This document shows, in pieces, positions 7,603-59,392 of a DNA stretch of 64,000 nt; the stretch's first letter is position 1, and each line of letters opens with the position of its first letter. The DNA lies in NCBI GenBank assembly GCA_963674735.2, contig CAXXQS010000002.1, positions 1,792,001 through 1,856,000 of the forward strand. Direction: 5' to 3'. Below the pieces are notes generated by a model. It did not search any database. It was not told the DNA's origin and saw nothing but the letters and a program-made list of their open reading frames with translations. The position numbers and the translations under genes were made by a program. The stretch is from Myxococcota bacterium (GTDB lineage Bacteria; Myxococcota_A; SURF-8).

Positions 7603-9090
7603 ATGCCGATCGTGTTTACCCCAGCCGATCTGATGCATGTGCTGCCGTGGATCGTAGTCGTGGCCTTCGCCATCGCCGTGCCGGTGCTCGACGTGTTTGC
7701 GCACGCCGAAACCAACCGTGCCTACGCCGGTTATCTGGCGTTGGTGGGGATCGGGGCGGCGTTTGCGCTGACCTTGTGGCAATGGGGCGCGCCCCCGACC
7801 TCGGCTTTCGGCGGGATGCTGCGTGTGGACGCCTTCGGGCTGTTTTTCAACGCGCTGCTGCTGGCGGCGGCGGGTGTGACCGTGTTGCTGGGCATCGGCT
7901 TTTTCCACGAGCACGGCTTGCATCGCGGCGAGTTCTACGGCCTGTTGCTGATGGCGCTGTCCGGCATGATGCTGATGGGCATGGCCAGCGACCTGCTGGC
8001 GTTTTTCGTCGCTCTGGAACTGATGTCGATTCCCATCTACGTGCTGGCGGCCTTCCAACGTCACTTGAATCAGAGCGTGGAGGCGGCGCTGAAGTATTTC
8101 CTGATGGGCGCGTTCTCCACCGCCTTTCTGCTCTTCGGGATCGCCTTCGTATATGGCGCGGTGGGCGCGACCGGTTACGACGCGGTGATGCAGTTCATCG
8201 CGGCCAAGGGCGTGACGGGCTCGGCCTTTTTGCCCCTGGGCATGATTTTCATCCTGATCGGTTTCGCCTTCAAAGTGGCGGCGGTGCCCTTCCACATGTG
8301 GACGCCCGATGTTTACGAGGGCGCGCCGACGGTGGTCACGGGCTTTATGGCCACGGCGGTCAAGGCGGCGGCCTTTGCGGCTTTCCTGCGGCTGTTCATC
8401 ACCGTGTTTTACGACATGAAGCTGGTGGGCTTCGGCTGGTTCCACATCCTGTGGGTGCTGGCGGTGGCCACCATGACGCTGGGTAACTTGACGGCCCTGA
8501 TGCAGGACAACATCAAGCGTATGCTGGCCTATTCGTCCATCGCTCATGCGGGTTATCTGCTGGTCGGTTTTCTTTCCATCACCCGGTCGCCCGACAACAA
8601 CGGCGCGGCGTCGCTCTTGTTTTACCTGGTGGCTTATGCGGCCATGAACCTGGGCGCGTTCGGAGTGGTGATCCTGGCCGGACGGCGCGACAAGGAAAAC
8701 CTGCTGGTTTCGAAGGGCTGGGCGGGCTTCGGCTTCCGCGCTCCGGCGCTGGGTGTCGCCATGACGATTTTCATGCTGAGCCTGGCGGGCGTGCCGCCGA
8801 CGGCCGGTTTCATGGGCAAGTTTTACGTGTTCAAATCGGCCATCGACCAGGGGCTGGTGCTGATCGCCGTGATCGGCGTGATCAACTCGTTGCTGTCGGT
8901 GTATTACTACCTGCGCATCCTGGTTTTCATGTATATGAAGCCCGCCGAAGAGGGCGCGGAGCTTGCGCCGCTTCGGTCCATGCCGGTGCAGGTGGCGGTG
9001 GTGATCGCGGTGGTGGCGACGCTGCAACTGGGCTTGCTGCCGTCGAGCTTCCTGGTTGCCGCGCAGACGGCCGTGCGCTCCCTGTTCTAA
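7603..9090 (+). CDS. nuoN: NADH-quinone oxidoreductase subunit N
   Basis: EAALKYFLMGA, FKVAAVPFHMWTPDVYEGAP, KRMLAYSSIAHAGY. Confidence 0.97.
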   Translation: MPIVFTPADLMHVLPWIVVVAFAIAVPVLDVFAHAETNRAYAGYLALVGIGAAFALTLWQWGAPPTSAFGGMLRVDAFGLFFNALLLAAAGVTVLLGIGFFHEHGLHRGEFYGLLLMALSGMMLMGMASDLLAFFVALELMSIPIYVLAAFQRHLNQSVEAALKYFLMGAFSTAFLLFGIAFVYGAVGATGYDAVMQFIAAKGVTGSAFLPLGMIFILIGFAFKVAAVPFHMWTPDVYEGAPTVVTGFMATAVKAAAFAAFLRLFITVFYDMKLVGFGWFHILWVLAVATMTLGNLTALMQDNIKRMLAYSSIAHAGYLLVGFLSITRSPDNNGAASLLFYLVAYAAMNLGAFGVVILAGRRDKENLLVSKGWAGFGFRAPALGVAMTIFMLSLAGVPPTAGFMGKFYVFKSAIDQGLVLIAVIGVINSLLSVYYYLRILVFMYMKPAEEGAELAPLRSMPVQVAVVIAVVATLQLGLLPSSFLVAAQTAVRSLF

Positions 9091-9170
9091 CCCAATCTGC
9101 AGGCGGGTCGCACTCGCGGCTTTGCGCCTTTTCGCTTTCTACCGGTTGCACCCGGTGACCATTCTGCCCA

Positions 9171-9201
9171 GTGGGGACCCCCGGCCCGTAAGGGCCGGGT
9201 C
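9171..9201. repeat. GC-rich hairpin downstream of nuoN (REP-like or terminator stem)
   Basis: CCCGGCCC-GTAA-GGGCCGGG (9180-9199) preceded by GTGGGGAC; no U-tract. Confidence 0.5.
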
Positions 9202-9247
9202 GAGGTTTATGGGGGAACCGCATCGCGGAAGGCTGCGCTTGTAATCG

Positions 9248-9274
9248 TGGAGCCCGTCGAGGGTGCACGCTGGA
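9248..9274. repeat. Left imperfect inverted repeat bounding the low-GC gene (partner 10621-10645)
   Basis: TGGAGCCCGTCGAGGGTGCACGCTGGA vs reverse complement of partner TGGAGCCCGCCGTAGGCACGCTGCA. Confidence 0.6.
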
Positions 9275-9278
9275 ACAA

Positions 9279-9460
9279 CACGGCGTTTCAATTCTAAGCT
9301 TTTCACCATTTTCCACCCACTATAATTCGGCTTACGGGTGCCATGGGCCAAGCCTTTGGCTTGCCCATGCTGTTTTCACGGGCAAACCTGACGGTTTAGC
9401 CCGTGCCACCCATCACCAATCGAAGATAATTCGAGACTCAATCAGAATTGAAACGCCCTA
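9279..9460. mobile_element. MITE copy 1 (182 bp)
   Basis: 14-bp perfect TIR GGCGTTTCAATTCT (9282-9295 / 9444-9457); 10-bp flanking direct repeat GCTGGAACAA (9269-9278, 9461-9470); inverted second copy at 54920-55102. Confidence 0.9.
9336..9411. repeat. Inverted REP-like palindrome doublet inside the MITE
   Basis: GGGTGC-CATGGGC-C-AAGCC-TTT-GGCTT-GCCCATG and, inverted, GGGTGG-CACGGGC-T-AAACC-GTCA-GGTTT-GCCCGTG. Confidence 0.8.
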
Positions 9461-9505
9461 GCTGGAACAAACAATACATAGACAAAATTATATTACTAAG
9501 CATAA

Positions 9506-10600
9506 TTGCTACATGAATCACAAAAACGTAGAGTGGGGATGATAGATATTATTCTGAATTCCTTAAATGAGATTATTAAAAAAACAGTCTCGGAGTTGAT
9601 AACGATCATGTTTGACTTCATTAAAACGTCTGCGGCTTTCTGCGCCATTATTGCTGGAATATTTGTTGCTTATAATCATTTATTCAGCTTTAGCGAGTTA
9701 CCTACATCTGATCGTATTTTTGGTGCCTTGCAACCTAGATCGATTGGTTCTATTAAACTGGATGCCGCTTCCGGTGGACAGTGGGAAGTAATCCTGCATG
9801 CGCTGGAAGACACCACTGAAGAAAGCAAGTTTTTCGAAAGATCCATACTTGCTTTCGCCTTTCCTATCCACGTTTATTTTATAACCGTGGGTGATGATAA
9901 TTCATATTCTGATGCTGAAAATGAAGGCATTGATGATTACATGGTTCTTATGTTTCTAAGTCGTGGATCGGTGTTTGTAAATTATATGATAAGAGTATTT
10001 TGTTCTGTAACAAGCAGTTCCATTTTTCGTGACACCTTAATTATCTTGCCCGACGAGATCGATAATCCGTATTTTGCGATGCACAATAACCTGCTTATCG
10101 GAAGTACGAGTTTGGAAATGATCAATGATCAATTGACGAGAATTGCAGATATTTGGGAGAAATCACCGAGGTCCAAAGCCAGACAAAATTATGGACTAAG
10201 TGAAAAATATATGAAAGAACATGTGGTAGTCTCTATGACGTCTCATGATATCAAAAGTGTTGTCGAATTAGTCAAAGGAGAAAATGGTAGAAATGATTTG
10301 CTCGAAGAAAATTGTGGTGATGATTCTCAGGGTGATAAAAAATGCCTAGCAACCAAGGTTCTTTTTAGTATGGTTGAAAATTGTAAGCGGTCGAACTTTG
10401 AGGGAAGTATTACCTATAAATCAGAATTAGCGGGTAACATTACATGTTGCAATGATAGAAAAGACTCAAGAAATAACCAGGAAGCAATGTATCAGATAAT
10501 AGCCCTGCTCAAGTCCGATCATGAAGGTGTTGAATTTGAAATAGGCGAAACCGTATTTGACAAAGAAGTGAGGCATCGTCTGAAGTTTCATATGAAGTAG
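9506..10600 (+). CDS. Hypothetical low-GC protein with N-terminal hydrophobic segment (start may be ATG 9539)
   Basis: 364-aa ORF, markedly AT-rich versus flanks; no motif recognised. Confidence 0.7.
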   Translation: MLHESQKRRVGMIDIILNSLNEIIKKTVSELITIMFDFIKTSAAFCAIIAGIFVAYNHLFSFSELPTSDRIFGALQPRSIGSIKLDAASGGQWEVILHALEDTTEESKFFERSILAFAFPIHVYFITVGDDNSYSDAENEGIDDYMVLMFLSRGSVFVNYMIRVFCSVTSSSIFRDTLIILPDEIDNPYFAMHNNLLIGSTSLEMINDQLTRIADIWEKSPRSKARQNYGLSEKYMKEHVVVSMTSHDIKSVVELVKGENGRNDLLEENCGDDSQGDKKCLATKVLFSMVENCKRSNFEGSITYKSELAGNITCCNDRKDSRNNQEAMYQIIALLKSDHEGVEFEIGETVFDKEVRHRLKFHMK

Positions 10601-10620
10601 CCTTTAACTATATTTCAACC

Positions 10621-10645
10621 TGCAGCGTGCCTACGGCGGGCTCCA
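10621..10645. repeat. Right imperfect inverted repeat bounding the low-GC gene
   Basis: Reverse complement matches 9248-9274 in 9-bp and 8-bp exact blocks. Confidence 0.6.
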
Positions 10646-10672
10646 GACCCTAAAAGCTCCCCTTCGCCTCTG

Positions 10673-10685
10673 CAAGTTATTGATA
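10673..10685 (-). promoter_or_regulatory. IHF-like binding site
   Basis: Minus strand TATCAATAACTTG is a full match to WATCAANNNNTTR. Confidence 0.5.
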
Positions 10686-11120
10686 TTAAAAGAAGAAAAC
10701 CCGATTTTAGCGGCGAATGGCAGTCGTATCTCGACGCCATTCGGGTGAAACTGAAATACCCGTGTTATTTCAACGAGATAAATCATCCTCTCTCGATTAT
10801 GTCTAATATAATATATTATGTATATAGTAGCGAGGTCTGCTTTTGCGCCCGAAATCAGGCTGTCCGGTGGCGCTTTCGGACTGAAGGCCTGAACGACCGG
10901 CACGAATTCATCCCCGATTGACGGGGCCTCTCGCATTTAAAGCGAAATCGGGGAGAGAGCGGACGGCCATCCTCCGAGCAACGGCGGTCGAGGAAGCAGC
11001 GGTGCAGGTGTGACGTATTACGGCAATCCTAGTAAAGCCAGGGGATTCCTACTTTACCCCCCGGCGTGCGGCTGAAAAAGCCAATGATTTCGCGAAAAGC
11101 GGCAACGGCGCAGCGGGCGT

Positions 11121-11146
11121 ATCGAGCGCATCGAGCGCATCGAGCG
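11121..11146. repeat. Short tandem repeat (ATCGAGCGC x~3)
   Basis: atcgagcgc atcgagcgc atcgagcg. Confidence 0.8.
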
Positions 11147-11237
11147 AAAATAAGGGGAAACCGGCCACGCGGTGCAAACGCGCAGGCGACGCAAAACGCG
11201 AAAAACGCCCCGGCGAACAGGCGGCGTCCGCACGGCT

Positions 11238-12149
11238 TCAGACTTTGGATCGCGGGTGGGCTTTTTCATAGATGCGCCGGATGGCGGCACGGTCGAGATG
11301 GGTGTAAATCTCCGTGGTGGCGATGTCGGCGTGCCCCAACAGCGCCTGCACCGCGCGCAGATCCGCTCCGCCTTCCAACAGGTGCGTGGCGAAACTATGG
11401 CGCAAAATGTGGGGACTGATGCGCCGCTTCAAGCCCGCCTTCAAGGCCAACTTGTCCAGCAGTTTGGTGATTGCGTCGCGCGTGAGCCGCCGCCCGCGCA
11501 CCGATACAAACAGCGCCGGACTCAACTCCACCCCGCGTAACAGCGTCGGTCGCGCATGGGTGAGATAGGAGTCAAGAGCCTCCAGCGCCGCGTCGCCCAG
11601 AGGGGCCAGACGCTCCTTGCCGCCCTTGCCGAAAACCTTCAGCAGGCCCGCCTGTGCGTCGAGATGCTGCAGATTCAGGCCCACCAGTTCCGAGACGCGC
11701 AGCCCGCCGCCGTAAAGCGTTTCGACGATCGCCGTGTCACGCAGGCCCAGCGGCGTGTCGCGTCCCGGCGCTTCCAGCAGACGCTCGACTTCGTCGAACG
11801 ACAGCACGTGGGGTAACGGTCGCGGCAGTTTGGGCGGAGCCAGATCGGGAGTGGGGTCGTGCTCGCAGCGGCGATCCTTCACCAGAAAACGATGGAACCC
11901 GCGAATGGCGCTGGTCATGCGGGCGCGCGTGCGGGGCGACAAACCGCGCGCGGCCAGCTGCTGCAGGTAGGCCGACAGCTTTTCGCGCGTCGCCGCAGCG
12001 GGGGACTCGATTGCTTCCTGTAACATATAGGATACATAGACGGTCAGGTCGCGGCTGTAAGCCGCCAGGGTGTTGGGCGACAGACGGCGCTCCACCTTCA
12101 GGTGAGCCAGGTAAAGATCCAGTGCACGGTCCCAGTCGATGGGCCCCAT
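11238..12149 (-). CDS. xerD: Site-specific tyrosine recombinase XerD
   Basis: LSPNTLAAYSRDL, GLRVSEL, GKGGKER, SPHILRHSFATHLLEGGADLRAVQALLGH, TTEIYTH, HPR. Confidence 0.92.
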   Translation of the reverse strand: MGPIDWDRALDLYLAHLKVERRLSPNTLAAYSRDLTVYVSYMLQEAIESPAAATREKLSAYLQQLAARGLSPRTRARMTSAIRGFHRFLVKDRRCEHDPTPDLAPPKLPRPLPHVLSFDEVERLLEAPGRDTPLGLRDTAIVETLYGGGLRVSELVGLNLQHLDAQAGLLKVFGKGGKERLAPLGDAALEALDSYLTHARPTLLRGVELSPALFVSVRGRRLTRDAITKLLDKLALKAGLKRRISPHILRHSFATHLLEGGADLRAVQALLGHADIATTEIYTHLDRAAIRRIYEKAHPRSKV

Positions 12150-16624: not shown

Positions 16625-17971
16625 CTAATCAAAACTGGGGGCGTTGGTTTGCAGCCAGGTGACCACCTGTGCGAGCTGATCGTCATTGGCCAGCATGGCG
16701 TCGTGGCCCAGCGCCACGAGGGTGTTGATGGCATCGTTGCAGTCGCCCTGGAAACTCTGGTTCAAACACTGCGTGGTAAAGGGTGTCATGGCGATGCTGA
16801 TGTTGGATACCACGTTGCGCCAGGTGATGCCCCCGCCGTCTTCCACGCCGTAAGGCGTTTCATCGACATCGGCGGTGGCCGGGTCGCCGTTGAGGTTCCA
16901 CTGCACGCTGTTGGTGCTTTGCAATTGCCCCGCGTAAGCCGGATACATTTCCTGATAGCCGACGCCGGCCAGCAGGTTGATCAGGGCCGCGTTGGTGCCG
17001 TGGTTCGCGCCCCCCATCAGGACCACGTCGCGTACGTACTGGTTTCCGTTGCCCGCCGCGATATACTGGCGGGTGCTCAAGGCTCCCATCCCATGTGCGA
17101 CGATGTCCACTTTTTCGCAGCCGGTTTCGGTAAGCAGGGTTTGAACGGCCGCCGCCAGTTCGATGGAATGGGTGATATTGCTGTCTACCGCATTGGTGTA
17201 ATCGATGGCGAACATGTACGAATCGGGATAATTGGCCGCTTCCAGCTTGTCTTTCATGCGGTTCCAGTCGCCGGGTCCGCCCGCAGCCTGGTGGACCATC
17301 ACCACCGGATCATGATCCCACAGATAGGCAAAGCCGTGTTCCAGGGACGCCTGGTCCGCCCCACGCTGCACCGTTACGGTATGGCTGCCGATGTACTGGG
17401 CATCCGCCGGTGGGAAGGTGGCATCGGCGCTGGTGGACGACAGCACGTTGACGGCGGTGGCCTGAATCGGGCCCACCATGACCGTCATGCCGGTTTGGAA
17501 ACCGGTGCCGGTAATCGTAACCGGGTGGGAGAAATTGTAATGGCCGTTTGCCGGTGAGACCGCCGTGATGCTGAGCACGCCCGGATCGGTGTCGCCATCG
17601 GTGTCGCCATCGGTGTCGCCATCGGTATCGCCATCGGTGTCGCCGTCGGTGTCGCCATCGGTGTCGCCGTCGGTGTCGCCATCGGTATCGCCATCGGTGT
17701 CACCGTCGGTATCGCCCTCGGTGTCGTCGTCCGTGTCGCCGTCCGTGTCGTCACCGTCGGGATCGTCACCGTCGGGATCGTCGCCGTCGGGATCGTCGCC
17801 ATCGGGATCGTCGCCATCGGGATCGTCGCCGTCGGGATCGTCGCCGTCGGGGGATTGGTCGCCGTCTATGTCGCCGTCACTACTGCTGTCGCTATCGCCG
17901 CAAGCGGTCAGGCCGCAGCAAAACAGACAGAAAGCGATGAGTAGAACAAGGGGTAAACGGGTATACAGCAT
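16625..17971 (-). CDS. Lipoprotein: DGD repeats + IPT/TIG-like domain + lipase-fold domain lacking the catalytic Ser
   Basis: Lipobox LTAC; ITAVSPANG..VTITGTGF; PVVMVH, KVDIVAHGMG, GGANHGT; start ATG 17971 with RBS GAGGT. Confidence 0.8.
   Translation of the reverse strand: MLYTRLPLVLLIAFCLFCCGLTACGDSDSSSDGDIDGDQSPDGDDPDGDDPDGDDPDGDDPDGDDPDGDDPDGDDTDGDTDDDTEGDTDGDTDGDTDGDTDGDTDGDTDGDTDGDTDGDTDGDTDGDTDPGVLSITAVSPANGHYNFSHPVTITGTGFQTGMTVMVGPIQATAVNVLSSTSADATFPPADAQYIGSHTVTVQRGADQASLEHGFAYLWDHDPVVMVHQAAGGPGDWNRMKDKLEAANYPDSYMFAIDYTNAVDSNITHSIELAAAVQTLLTETGCEKVDIVAHGMGALSTRQYIAAGNGNQYVRDVVLMGGANHGTNAALINLLAGVGYQEMYPAYAGQLQSTNSVQWNLNGDPATADVDETPYGVEDGGGITWRNVVSNISIAMTPFTTQCLNQSFQGDCNDAINTLVALGHDAMLANDDQLAQVVTWLQTNAPSFD
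17585..17878 (-). repeat. Coding tandem repeats DGDT (12 bp, ~13 units) and DGDDP (15 bp, 6 units)
   Basis: ggtgtcgccatc and gggatcgtcgccgtc units on the + strand. Confidence 0.95.
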
Positions 17972-50154: not shown

Positions 50155-50685
50155 GAAGACCTGTTTGCGCTCGATGCGTCGGATGCGCGGTTGTGTCGCC
50201 CGGCCCGTTTCGTCGCGGATTCGCTTGCTGCGCGTTATGCGCCGTTTTTTCGCTCCCTTTTGGCCTGCGTGTTTTCCGGCAGGATGAAATCCGATAGGAA
50301 AACCGAGAATGCCGTAATACGTCACACCTAAGACGGGGGTCCGTGCGCCGGGCTGGATCGGCGGTGCATCGGGAACCGGAGTCACTGCGGGTTGGAAACG
50401 CGTGATAGCCCTGTGAATAAAGAACAAATCGTGTTCGGGCTCTGCGACTTCCGGGTGGGCGTGACGGTGTCATAATCAGTCAAATGATGAAAAGGGGAGG
50501 AATCGTAAGGTATAGCTAGAATAGTATATTGAATAGAAAACTTAGGATCGCCAAAGTAGGTGTTGTATCTCGTTGAAATAACAGGGAAATCCCGTATATG
50601 ACGAAGACGTCGTGGAGATGGCCGGGGAGAAGACGGGCGAAGTCGGTAGAAACAGACCCGATATCAGGGGCTTACGCAGACTACC
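50155..50685. repeat. Dispersed non-coding element, copy B (inverted relative to copy A; boundaries approximate)
   Basis: CGCTCGATGCG (50168-50178), TGCCGTAATACGTCACACCT (50310-50329), TATCTCGTTGAAATAACA (50566-50583). Confidence 0.8.
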
Positions 50686-53756: not shown

Positions 53757-54004
53757 GGCGGTCTCCCTGGTTGGTTGCGGATCCTGACGTTGCCGTTTTA
53801 CTGTATCGGAAGCGGAGCCGGAAACCAGGATTTTTATCATAACCGACCCGGTAAGACTTAAGAGGGTTTCGACTCGCCGTTTTTTTCCGTTTTTTCACGA
53901 GCGATCGTAAAAAATCACACAATTCGAATGGACCCTCGACCGTATTTGCCGGTATGATAGCGCCGCGATCGAGCCGAAATACCGAATCAACGACGGGATG
54001 GGAC

Positions 54005-54922
54005 ATGACGATACGTGAACCCGAACTTCGAACCCTTACGCGGCCCGACGGCAAGCTGGCTTATTGGGAGTGGAAGCAGGCCGGTTCCGCCGCGCCGCTC
54101 TTGCATTTCGCCCACGCGAACGGCTTCAACGGCTTTACCTACCGGCGCTTGTTGGGACGTCTGGCCCAGCGGGTCCGTGTGTGTGCTTGGGACGCGCGCG
54201 GCCACGGCCGCTCGACCCTGAACCGCGATCCGGCCGGATTGACGTCGTGGGATGTATATCAATCTGATTTAATTGCGCTTTTGGATTCGTTTGGCGAACC
54301 GGCGGTTTTGGTCGGGCATTCGATGGGCGGCACGGTGAGCCTGGAGACGACGGCGGCGCGGCCCGATTTGGTGCGCGCCCTGATCCTGATCGATCCGGTT
54401 ATTTTCCCCTATTTCTGGCTGCAAATGTGGGGCTTGTTCAAAAATCTGGGTCTGGGTCAGCGCATTCCCATCGCCGCCCGGGCGGCCAAACGGCGTGCGC
54501 TTTGGCCGGATCGCGACACCCTGTTCGACAGCTACCGCCGACAAGCGGTCTTCGGCGGCTGGCCGGACGCCTGGTTACGCGATTATATCGCGGGCGGCAC
54601 GACGGACCGTGCCGATGGCCGGGTGGAACTGAGTTGTCGGCCCGAGTGGGAGGCGCGCAGTTTCGCCACCTTGTCGCACAAAGCGTGGGCGCGCATGCGC
54701 GGCGTGCGTGTGCCGGTGCTGGTGCTGTGCGGGGCGCGTAGCGATACGTTCCTCCCGGCGGCCCGACGGCGCATTCAACGGGTGCTGCCCCAGGCGCGGG
54801 TGGTTTGCGTGGAGGAGGTGGGCCATTTCGTTCCGATGGAAGCCGCCCAGCGCGTACAGACCGAAATCGAAGGTTTTCTTGCCGATCTGCCTGAGATGGC
54901 GGGCGGGCCGGAAGCGGCGTAG
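54005..54922 (+). CDS. Alpha/beta hydrolase
   Basis: HANGF, DARGHGRS, GHSMGG, LIDP, GHFVPME; stop codon supplied by the MITE. Confidence 0.9.
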   Translation: MTIREPELRTLTRPDGKLAYWEWKQAGSAAPLLHFAHANGFNGFTYRRLLGRLAQRVRVCAWDARGHGRSTLNRDPAGLTSWDVYQSDLIALLDSFGEPAVLVGHSMGGTVSLETTAARPDLVRALILIDPVIFPYFWLQMWGLFKNLGLGQRIPIAARAAKRRALWPDRDTLFDSYRRQAVFGGWPDAWLRDYIAGGTTDRADGRVELSCRPEWEARSFATLSHKAWARMRGVRVPVLVLCGARSDTFLPAARRRIQRVLPQARVVCVEEVGHFVPMEAAQRVQTEIEGFLADLPEMAGGPEAA

Positions 54923-55102
54923 GGTGTTTAACTCTGATTTTAGTCTCGAATCATCTTCGATTGATGATGGGTGGCACGGGCTAAACCGTCAGGTTTGCCC
55001 GTGAAAACAGCATGGGCAAGCCAAAGGCTTGGCCCATGGCACCCCGTAAGCCGAATTATCGTGGGTGGAAAACGGTCAAAAGCTTAGAATTGAAACGCCG
55101 TG
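54920..55102. mobile_element. MITE copy 2 (183 bp, inverted relative to copy 1)
   Basis: About 11 differences from copy 1 by manual alignment; flanking direct repeat GAAGCGGCG (54911-54919, 55103-55111). Confidence 0.9.
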
Positions 55103-55213
55103 GAAGCGGCGGCATGTCCTTGACTTCAGGTGGAAAAGGCAAGTAAACTCGGAGCGACTATCCTTAGAATCAAAAGTCAATATGGATCACGTTCGACGAA
55201 GTGGAGCAAAACA

Positions 55214-57643: not shown

Positions 57644-59392
57644 ATGAAAACACGTAATCAACACGCTTGGTTCTGGCTGGTCGCGCTGATGCTTCTGCTC
57701 GTAACGGGATGCGGCGGTGGTGGCGGGACGGATGTGGACGGCGATCTGGATAGCGCGCCCGACGGCGACACGGACGGGGATGATCCCGACGGCGATACCG
57801 ACGGAGATGACCCCGATGGCGACAGCGACGGCGACGCGGAGGGCGAAGAACCGCCCGACGTGGAAGAGTTGGTGGAACAGGGCTATTTCTGGCTGGAGAA
57901 CGGCGAAGCGGCCTTCGCCGCCGACATCTTCGCCGAGGCCTTCGCCGTCGTCCCGGACGATCAACGCGTGCGCTTCGGCTACGCGTTGTCCGAATCGATG
58001 GTGGGTTTCGAACTCCTGTTCGATGTGGCACTGGGTGCCATGGCGGGCCAGCTCAGTTCGAAGCCCGTCGAGATGGGCCCCGATGGGCCGGTCTGGAAGG
58101 ACGGAGACGACAGCCTCAACGAATGGTTCGATGAAACCCTGCAACAGGTTTTCTCGCTGATCAATAACCAGTTCCTGTTCGCGGTGGAATTGTATGCGCC
58201 GCTCAAAGAGACGGGCGGGGTGTCGATCACCGTCAACAAGATTCCGTTCTACCTGGCCATGCAGCACGAATCGTGGATCCAGGGCGAAATCGACGACGCC
58301 GATGTTTACATGTTCGACGGCATCGCGCGCCTGATGGCCGGGCTGTTCGAATTTTTGCAGGCGCACGGCCTGGAAACCGATCTCGGGACGGCCATCAGCG
58401 TGGGAGCGGAGCTGGTCAAGGGCGACGCCAATCTGCAGAGCATCCTGGGGCTGGTGACGTTCCTGCTCAACGCCAACGACGGTTTCCTGGATTTCAACGC
58501 GGAAGGAAGCGCCCGCATCGCCAACAGCCGCGCGTTGTTGGTCGGCGCTTTGGACGACCTGCTCTTGGCGGCGGCGGCGGCCGAAGCCGAGCTGGAAACC
58601 GACCGCGATCAGAGCGACGACATCTTCGTGGTGGAAGATGACGACGGAATCAGCATGAGAATGAACCTGTGGAGCTGGGAAACGGACGACGAGAGCGGCG
58701 AGCCCGTGGCCGATTTGACCGAACTGACCTTGATCGAGCCGTCGGTGCTGGTGGCGGCCAGCGAAGTCAAAGCGCAGATCGAAAACGGCGGCGACGCCCT
58801 GCCGTTCTCCACCCACTACATTCCCTTGGTGAGCGCGGCGGCCATCGTACCCATCGGGTTCGGCCTGCTCGAGGCTTTCGGGGTCGATCTCGGATTGGAT
58901 ATCGCCATCGTGTCGCCGTCGGTTTTGGCGGGCTTGATCGGCACCTTCGTTAATCTCGACGTGGTGGCCCTCGATCTGAACGCCTACTACGCCGACCCGG
59001 TTCCGCTCAGGGACATGCTGCCCGAGTGGACGACCGACCGGGGTACCTGGGACAACATGCTGATCATGGAATGGGAATGTCCGGCGGAACTGGATGACGA
59101 CGTGCCCGATGGCGCGGGCGGCTTGCTGTGCGCCGGTGGCGACGAGACCCTCGTCGATGCGGAGCATTTCAAGGACACACCCTATGAAATTCCGCTCGAC
59201 GACAAGTTGCTGGGAACCCCCTACATCGCTTTCCGCGATCCCACTTTCGGCGGCATGCTGTACGTGGACGTGGAAGCGCTGGATCTGGACGGCTACGACG
59301 ATGACGCACGCTGGGTTCCGGCGGATCAATTCAACCTCAATGCGGCGCTGGGCAAGATTCTGGCGCGCATCGGGAGCCTGATCGGAGACTGA
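57644..59392 (+). CDS. Acidic hypothetical lipoprotein with DGD repeats
   Basis: RBS GGAGG, lipobox VTGC, DGD-repeat linker (57730-57840). Confidence 0.8.
   Translation: MKTRNQHAWFWLVALMLLLVTGCGGGGGTDVDGDLDSAPDGDTDGDDPDGDTDGDDPDGDSDGDAEGEEPPDVEELVEQGYFWLENGEAAFAADIFAEAFAVVPDDQRVRFGYALSESMVGFELLFDVALGAMAGQLSSKPVEMGPDGPVWKDGDDSLNEWFDETLQQVFSLINNQFLFAVELYAPLKETGGVSITVNKIPFYLAMQHESWIQGEIDDADVYMFDGIARLMAGLFEFLQAHGLETDLGTAISVGAELVKGDANLQSILGLVTFLLNANDGFLDFNAEGSARIANSRALLVGALDDLLLAAAAAEAELETDRDQSDDIFVVEDDDGISMRMNLWSWETDDESGEPVADLTELTLIEPSVLVAASEVKAQIENGGDALPFSTHYIPLVSAAAIVPIGFGLLEAFGVDLGLDIAIVSPSVLAGLIGTFVNLDVVALDLNAYYADPVPLRDMLPEWTTDRGTWDNMLIMEWECPAELDDDVPDGAGGLLCAGGDETLVDAEHFKDTPYEIPLDDKLLGTPYIAFRDPTFGGMLYVDVEALDLDGYDDDARWVPADQFNLNAALGKILARIGSLIGD

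What the first reader, a model, noticed from the sequence alone, without database searches (positions are those of the whole stretch)
9336..9411. REP-like doublet with compensatory changes nested inside the MITE
Seen: two inverted GGGTG-tagged hairpins differ by paired changes (CATGGGC/GCCCATG vs CACGGGC/GCCCGTG; AAGCC/GGCTT vs AAACC/GGTTT) and keep the same single-base bulge. This core is identical in both MITE copies while the differences fall in the flanks. Known: REP/REPIN doublets are substrates of HUH RAYT transposases, whereas TIR+TSD elements use DDE enzymes. Inference: a hybrid element in which a REPIN hitchhikes on a MITE, or a MITE that distributes a structured RNA/DNA signal.
Basis: partly seen in the sequence, partly recalled or inferred. 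Interest (0 to 1): 0.75.

Follow-up and report, generated by a model that had tools for sequence, protein, structure and literature searches.

The report
REP hairpin pair riding a MITE
A small jumping DNA element carries a pair of hairpins that belong to a second, unrelated kind of mobile repeat, and the same hairpin family has also ended up inside other unrelated jumping elements, suggesting one genomic parasite can hitch rides on another.

Summary
Observation confirmed. 9336-9411 is a tags-outward pair of bulged hairpins inside a 182-bp element with 17-bp TIRs and a 10-bp target duplication. A second copy (54920-55102, minus strand) has its own 9-bp duplication. The hairpins belong to a multi-copy REP family of deltaproteobacterial, Myxococcota and Acidobacteriota MAGs. 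There they mostly lack TIRs, and they flank RAYT genes at 4 distinct loci. The 'compensatory' differences are ordinary variants of that family, so they do not show selection inside the MITE. Core-versus-flank conservation is suggestive in the window (P 0.002-0.055) but did not hold for the unselected hairpin of another REP-carrying MITE family (p=0.67). The same REP doublet sits in three other, unrelated TIR-bounded carriers (one family of 8 sampled copies, two single elements). Best reading: a REPIN was captured by a DDE-type MITE and is copied as a passenger. A REP inside a MITE is published (Coxiella QMITE2). I found no report of repeated capture of one RAYT-linked REP family. Free REPs, a RAYT and the partner transposase in this host remain untested.

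The parts
9269..9278 (+). left target-site duplication of copy A (10 bp)
   Evidence: exact repeat at 9461-9470
9279..9295 (+). left terminal inverted repeat of copy A
   Evidence: 15 of 17 match to the right TIR
9296..9335 (+). left internal arm of the MITE (AT-rich, non-REP)
   Evidence: conserved in copy B with 3 substitutions and one G-run indel at its edge; no match in 77 loci
9336..9369 (+). REP 1: GTGC-tagged bulged hairpin
   Evidence: 29 of 36 identical to the REP downstream of the RAYT in L009
9370..9376 (.). 7-nt spacer of the doublet
   Evidence: shortest spacer among the doublets listed (others 11-100 nt)
9377..9411 (-). REP 2: GTGG-tagged bulged hairpin
   Evidence: 33 of 37 identical to the REP upstream of the RAYT in L009
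9412..9443 (+). right internal arm of the MITE
9444..9460 (-). right terminal inverted repeat of copy A
   Evidence: its -35-like hexamer at 9448 forms a weak outward promoter-like match, 9 of 12
9461..9470 (+). right target-site duplication of copy A
54911..54919 (+). target-site duplication of copy B (9 bp), hydrolase side
   Evidence: repeat at 55103-55111
54920..55102 (-). copy B of the MITE (183 bp); its first three bases supply the stop codon of the alpha/beta-hydrolase ORF 53954-54922
54969..55003 (+). REP 2 in copy B
55011..55044 (-). REP 1 in copy B
55103..55111 (+). second target-site duplication of copy B

Best explanation
The core is a REPIN (a tags-outward REP doublet) of a GTGG/GTGC-tagged, RAYT-associated REP family. 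It entered an ancestral non-autonomous TIR element once, probably by RAYT-mediated single-strand insertion (inferred). Since then it has been copied as cargo whenever a DDE transposase acting in trans moves the whole 182-bp unit, leaving 9-10-bp duplications at the TIR ends. Shown: the anatomy, the duplications, the REP identity and the RAYT association in other genomes. Inferred: the order of events, the enzyme, and passenger status. The differences between the two hairpins are inherited family variants. The identical cores of A and B are most simply recent common ancestry plus few mutations, with possible mild constraint or conversion.
For: (1) Duplications flank the TIRs in both copies and differ between them. 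In the control, 0 of 227 random positions had an inverted repeat scoring >=10 together with a duplication >=7 bp. 14 of 22 distinct tags-outward doublets outside the window showed no TIR-plus-duplication frame. (3) RAYT genes flanked by these hairpins occur at 4 distinct loci in 3 genomes. 3 of 4 pass the NF047646 cut-off; the fourth is interrupted by a stop and was scanned as a fragment. The only PDB match of the L009 protein is E. coli TnpA-REP, 4ER8, E=1.7e-8. (4) In L009 the REP upstream of the RAYT is 33/37 identical to hairpin 2, and the one downstream shares hairpin 1's tag and 5' arm (29/36). (5) The same REP family is nested in carriers with unrelated ends. One is a ~316-bp family in one MAG (8 of 10 sampled loci; 6 full length, 90-94% identical to L025). 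One is a 295-bp element with an 8-bp duplication in the same MAG (L055). One is a 156-bp element with an 8-bp duplication and decayed TIRs in another MAG (L038). Their non-REP parts share no significant similarity. In that first MAG a similar doublet also occurs without a clear carrier (L046). (6) The unselected hairpin in the 316-bp family decays like the flanks.
Against: No free REP, RAYT or DDE transposase was found in the window. No empty carrier (TIRs without a doublet) and no autonomous partner was found anywhere, so capture-into-MITE is not shown directly. The window's own core-versus-flank asymmetry (P 0.002-0.055) leans towards constraint rather than neutral cargo. L055 and L038 are single copies. 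L055's duplication is palindromic. The 316-bp family's duplication could not be resolved because its ends are quasi-palindromic. The scan was truncated, so the sample is partial.
Confidence: 0.62

Rival explanations
1. The carrier arose by internal deletion of a full-length IS that already held the REP doublet in its non-coding end, or of a TIR-bounded transposon carrying a whole RAYT locus whose gene was then lost. The doublet never inserted into a MITE as such.
For: The doublet has the same tags-outward geometry as REP-RAYT-REP loci, and its two halves resemble the upstream and downstream REPs of L009. MITEs often derive from IS deletion (PMC3184786, passages).
Against: No TIR-plus-duplication frame was found within 1.5 kb of any of the 4 RAYT loci. 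No DDE transposase was found among 104 of 121 ORFs next to the hairpins. Free doublets mixing the two tag types are common, so no RAYT deletion is needed to explain the pairing.
Confidence: 0.2
2. The doublet is functional and selected cargo. It is kept because it acts as an RNA stem-loop at gene ends or remains a RAYT substrate that is converted or repaired, so the MITE distributes a regulatory or RAYT-landing signal.
For: 0 of 11 differences fall in the core. Copy B sits at the 3' end of a gene and supplies its stop codon. REPs are reported to stabilise mRNA and terminate transcription (PMC3479197, passages). The family shows strong stem covariation.
Against: There are only two copies, and P rises to 0.02-0.055 under reasonable recounting. 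There is no terminator-like T-run after the hairpins. The unselected hairpin of the 316-bp family has stem-breaking changes at the flank rate. Covariation was measured across free REPs, on 40 hand-picked rows.
Confidence: 0.13
3. The reverse direction, as proposed for QMITE2: the hairpins are part of the MITE, and free copies are truncated MITEs.
For: This is the reading in PMC5896051 (section 8). In the window the hairpins occur only in the MITE.
Against: The hairpins flank RAYT genes and occur in carriers with unrelated ends. No locus shares the window's non-REP arms.
Confidence: 0.03
4. The identical core is partly an assembly artefact: repeat collapse homogenised the two copies.
For: The longest identical stretch (80 nt) is about the size of assembly k-mers (inference). 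The origin of the window is unknown.
Against: Each copy has distinct flanks and its own duplication, and differences lie 4-5 nt from the core. This would affect only the core-versus-flank claim, not the nesting.
Confidence: 0.02

Closest known systems
QMITE2 of Coxiella burnetii (PMC5896051; I saw the abstract, section 8 in full and search passages; figures and supplements not seen)
   Same: About 170-190 bp, TIRs, unique 7-11-nt direct repeats, contains a GTAG-class REP, REP-only versions exist without TIRs, and it overlaps the 3' ends of genes.
   Different: The authors treat the REP-only copies as truncated MITEs. In the passages I searched the paper does not mention RAYT (0 occurrences). 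Here the REP is tied to RAYT loci and found in several unrelated carriers. Sequence relatedness to QMITE2 was not tested.
GTAG-tagged REP dimers inside longer palindromes (A. variabilis GTAG-15, H. neapolitanus CGTC-1; PMC3733652, parts 1-2 of 8 and passages read; Figure 1 consensus sequences and supplements not seen)
   Same: A REP dimer enclosed by an outer inverted repeat; head-head dimers are the usual form; the GTGG tag variant is described.
   Different: No target duplications or MITE status are reported in the passage. A C at tag position 4 (39 of 83 hits here) is not among the degeneracies listed in the text. I could not see whether this family equals one of their 24.
REPIN-RAYT system (PMC3116915 and bioRxiv 10.1101/2021.07.10.451892, passages; E. 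coli TnpA-REP, PMC3479197, passages)
   Same: Two inverted REPs with a short spacer, a 5' tetranucleotide tag, a bulged stem, extragenic positions, and a RAYT flanked by the same REPs.
   Different: Those passages contrast REPINs and MITEs as separate life histories. Here one is inside the other, and the tag is GTGG/GTGC rather than GTAG.
IS4-family (IS4Sa-like) or ISAs1-like derived MITEs; Chunjie of Geobacter
   Same: 9-10-bp duplications. The left end starts CA with T at position 9, fitting the IS4Sa row (DR 8-10) of PMC2266710 Table (passage). Chunjie is 178-235 bp with 9-bp DRs (PMC3184786, passage).
   Different: The right end starts TA. No partner transposase was found. The resemblance to ISAs1 ends is recalled, not tested. 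The Chunjie sequence was not compared.

Membership tests
REP (GTAG superfamily) | 20-40-nt imperfect palindrome that folds as a hairpin | tested here: met
   11-pair structure 99.3% paired over 40 hand-picked rows, 5 pairs with changes on both sides
REP (GTAG superfamily) | unpaired GTAG-like tetranucleotide 5' of the hairpin | tested here: met
   GTGG 44 and GTGC 39 of 83 unique hits. The pattern fixed GT, allowed A or G at position 3 and C or G at position 4. GTGC departs from the variants named in PMC3733652.
REP (GTAG superfamily) | multi-copy and extragenic | tested here: met
   met in other genomes; in the window only 4 hairpins, all in the two MITE copies
REPIN-RAYT system | two REPs in inverted orientation with a short spacer | tested here: met
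REPIN-RAYT system | RAYT gene flanked by the same REPs | tested here: met
   met in 3 other genomes
REPIN-RAYT system | RAYT and free REPINs in the same genome as the element | not testable with these tools
   none in the 64-kb window; host genome not among the 77 loci and not otherwise available
REPIN-RAYT system | binding and cleavage by the RAYT, dependent on tag and bulge | not testable with these tools
   needs a bench assay
MITE | TIRs, short, non-coding | tested here: met
   182 and 183 bp; TIR 15 of 17 in A, decayed in B
MITE | target-site duplication unique to each insertion | tested here: met
   10 bp and 9 bp, different sequences
MITE | cognate autonomous IS sharing the TIRs | tested here: inconclusive
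   none in the window, the 77 loci, plasmids or phages; host genome not searched
IS4 family (IS4Sa) derivative | CA------T ends and 8-10-bp DR | tested here: inconclusive
   left end and DR length fit; right end begins TA; transposase not seen
Rfam structured RNA | match at gathering score | tested here: not met
   0 matches in the window; only sub-threshold chance hits in 9050-11300

The most novel reading that the evidence does not exclude
Nesting is a recurring strategy rather than an accident. One GTGG/GTGC-tagged REPIN family repeatedly colonises unrelated DDE-type MITEs (four carriers seen in three genomes) and spreads by a second, RAYT-independent and much faster route. That would blur the published REPIN-versus-MITE contrast and could keep REPINs multiplying after RAYT loss. 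Also, if tag bases 3-4 set the cut site as in E. coli TnpA-REP, the two tags predict two different cleavage dinucleotides (CC and GC) served by one RAYT.
Probability: 0.3. Interest if true: 0.68.

Novelty: new variant of a known kind. Interest (0 to 1): 0.45.

Why it matters
How REPINs spread is still poorly understood. If REP doublets can be amplified by ordinary cut-and-paste transposases once they sit inside a MITE, then REP copy number in some genomes reflects DDE activity rather than RAYT activity. QMITE2-like elements would then be read the other way round, as captured REPs. The family also offers a RAYT with two natural guide tags, a ready test of the guide-pairing rule. If the nesting is only chance insertion into tolerant intergenic DNA, this is a tidy but minor example of nested mobile DNA.

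Tried and rejected
Known RNA or tRNA: none.

More hairpins or TIRs in the window: fuzzy search and an unfiltered covariance-model search found only the two copies. The next hit was E=0.056 and only 16 nt long.

Partner IS: whole element against plasmids gave no match, and against phages only short chance hits. The two ends against plasmids gave short chance hits, none covering the terminal bases with a matching second end. TIRs with up to 3 mismatches in 77 loci: none.

TIR-bounded RAYT transposon: none at 4 loci. DDE transposase beside the hairpins: none in 104 of 121 neighbouring ORFs. The 17 left out were the 3 RAYTs already scanned and 14 others; 10 loci had been skipped beforehand as duplicates or as the Rhodobacterales hits.

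Five Rhodobacterales loci (L016, L020, L048, L060, L077) and L017 have a broken outer stem and are treated as non-REP matches. They remain in the 83-hit tallies.

Conservation of the first hairpin in the 316-bp family (1 of 34 variable columns, p=0.005) was rejected as evidence because the scan pattern selected it. My first HUH motif search missed the RAYTs and was corrected. An 8-bp direct repeat on either side of the core (E about 0.3) was not taken as an inner duplication.

Host taxonomy could not be looked up. Metagenome and viral contig collections stayed unchecked.

Literature searches: MITE, REP sequence, TIR, ISAs1: 0 papers; REPIN, RAYT, MITE: 6 papers; REP, nested, MITE, TSD, RAYT: 34 papers, 20 listed, none on this topic by title. 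None showed repeated capture of one REP family by several MITEs. The library lacks most subscription papers, and unseen figures and supplements of PMC3733652 may already list this REP family.

Full report
Observation. The stretch 9336-9411 holds two inverted hairpins with tags pointing outward, each with a 7-bp lower stem, one unpaired base and a 5-bp upper stem. The fold is far beyond shuffles (z=-5.96 as DNA, 0 of 200). The core lies in a 182-bp element (9279-9460) with 17-bp TIRs matching at 15 positions and an exact 10-bp duplication. A 183-bp copy at 54920-55102 on the minus strand has a different, 9-bp duplication. No other copy, free hairpin, RAYT or DDE transposase was found in the window (50 of 183 listed ORFs scanned). 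Rfam has no match.

Core versus flanks. All 11 differences between the copies fall outside the 76-nt core (P=0.002; longest-run test P=0.016). Dropping the 4 events clustered at B's right end gives 0.010 and 0.055. Counting the G-run indel at the core's edge as inside gives 0.020. This is suggestive, from two copies only.

What the hairpins are. Most come from Thermodesulfobacteriota/Desulfomonilia, Myxococcota, Acidobacteriota and Chloroflexota MAGs; five Rhodobacterales hits and L017 look like non-REP matches. None is the window's genome, and none shares the element's non-REP arms. The hairpins occur singly, in arrays and as tags-outward doublets between ordinary genes. Four distinct loci in three genomes have a RAYT gene between two such hairpins, tags outward. 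Three pass the NCBIfam REP-associated tyrosine transposase cut-off; the fourth is interrupted by a stop codon. The L009 protein's only PDB match is E. coli TnpA-REP. In L009 the upstream REP is 33 of 37 identical to hairpin 2, and the downstream one is 29 of 36 identical to hairpin 1 with the same tag and 5' arm. Across 40 hand-picked hairpins the stem is 99.3% paired, with changes on both sides at 5 of 11 pairs. In the 83 unique scan hits, the upper-stem pair that the pattern left free to mismatch was G-C 74, A-T 6, G-T 2 and A-C 1. So the hairpins are REPs, and the differences between them are family variants that exist outside any MITE. For E. coli TnpA-REP, the bulge and the 5' tetranucleotide are needed for binding and cleavage, and tag bases 3-4 pair with the cut site (PMC3479197, passages). 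That explains by analogy why the bulge is kept. Here the tag is GTGG (44) or GTGC (39) of 83.

What the carrier is. The duplications lie at the TIR ends, so the last move of each copy was of the whole element. From established knowledge that is the mark of a DDE transposase, not of an HUH enzyme. The left end and duplication length fit the IS4Sa row of PMC2266710 (passage), but the right end does not fully fit. No partner was found, so the family stays open.

Recurrence. A search for TIR frames around the fetched hairpins and alignment of their flanks showed three more carriers with unrelated ends. The first is a ~316-bp family in one MAG (8 of its 10 sampled loci; 6 full length, 90-94% identical to L025; duplication unresolved). 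The second is a 295-bp element with an 8-bp palindromic duplication in the same MAG (L055). The third is a 156-bp element with decayed TIRs and an 8-bp duplication in a Syntrophobacterales MAG (L038). A related doublet in the first MAG has no clear carrier (L046). In the control, 61 of 227 random positions reached an inverted-repeat score of 10 and 9 reached 12, but 0 of 227 combined a score of 10 with a duplication of 7 bp or more. The inverted-repeat score alone is therefore weak, and the two single elements rest on the duplication. Overall 8 of 22 distinct doublets outside the window lie in such carriers and 14 do not. In the 316-bp family the hairpin not selected by the scan varies as much as the flanks (9 of 34 against 53 of 230 columns, p=0.67) and includes stem-breaking changes, which argues for passenger status.

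Mechanism. Most likely (0.62) a REPIN entered an ancestral MITE and is now copied with it in trans by a DDE transposase. The anatomy, duplications, REP identity and RAYT link elsewhere are shown. The order of events and the enzyme are inferred. Rivals: derivation from an IS or RAYT transposon that already held the REPs (0.20; no TIR frame around 4 RAYT loci, and no DDE gene among 104 of 121 neighbours); selected functional cargo (0.13); REPs as truncated MITEs (0.03); assembly collapse affecting the identity claim (0.02). Local effects: copy B supplies the stop codon of an alpha/beta-hydrolase and removes its last three codons. Both copies lie just upstream of promoter-like sites of the next gene. 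Neither hairpin is followed by a terminator-like T-run.

Comparison with what is known. QMITE2 (PMC5896051; abstract, section 8 and passages) is a MITE of similar size with 7-11-nt direct repeats and an internal GTAG REP, so the architecture is published, though read there as REPs being truncated MITEs. PMC3733652 (parts 1-2 of 8 and passages) notes REP dimers inside longer palindromes; its consensus figure and supplements were not visible, so this REP family may be one of its 24. REPIN papers (PMC3116915 and bioRxiv 10.1101/2021.07.10.451892, passages) set REPINs and MITEs apart. PMC10969869 was seen as passages only. My searches found no report of one RAYT-linked REP family nested in several unrelated MITEs, within a library that lacks most subscription papers.

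Verdict. It is a new variant of a known kind, interest 0.45. The bolder reading, that nesting is a recurrent RAYT-independent route of REPIN spread, has probability about 0.3 and interest 0.68.

Noticed in passing
window 54920-54922: The end of MITE copy B provides the TAG stop of the alpha/beta-hydrolase ORF 53954-54922; without the insertion the protein would run three codons further.
   Followed up: yes
window 10795-10827: An AT-rich quasi-palindrome about 400 bp from a XerC/XerD-like integrase gene (11238-12149) resembles a dif site by recalled consensus. GC skew does not flip there.
   Followed up: no
window 9506-10600: A low-GC ORF of 364 aa with no Pfam match lies directly downstream of copy A, with its own promoter-like site at 9479-9506.
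   Followed up: partly
window 9172-9265: A GC-rich stem-loop region between the last complex I gene and copy A; no Rfam match.
   Followed up: partly
window 10760-10785 and 50561-50586: A 26-nt inverted repeat pair (88%) in two AT-rich intergenic regions, possibly a shared protein-binding site.
   Followed up: no
window 9322-9329 and 9426-9433: An 8-bp direct repeat on either side of the core within the MITE; not significant on its own, but it could mark an older inner insertion.
   Followed up: partly
L007, L010, L025, L030, L057, L061, L064, L071; L055; L038: Three further TIR-bounded carriers of the same REP doublet family, unrelated to the window's element and to each other.
   Followed up: yes
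L021:2894-3890; L024:1137-1846; L072:3001-3349: A RAYT locus with a five-REP tandem array including one GTAG-tagged unit; a RAYT interrupted by a stop codon; and a shrunken RAYT remnant between two REPs, which may be steps from RAYT locus to REPIN.
   Followed up: partly
L027 and L044: Single REPs sit about 20 nt from what looks like a tRNA gene end in two related MAGs.
   Followed up: no
window 17550-17900 and 57737-57850: Coding tandem repeats of 12, 15 and 27 nt giving Asp/Gly/Thr-rich linkers in two large ORFs.
   Followed up: no
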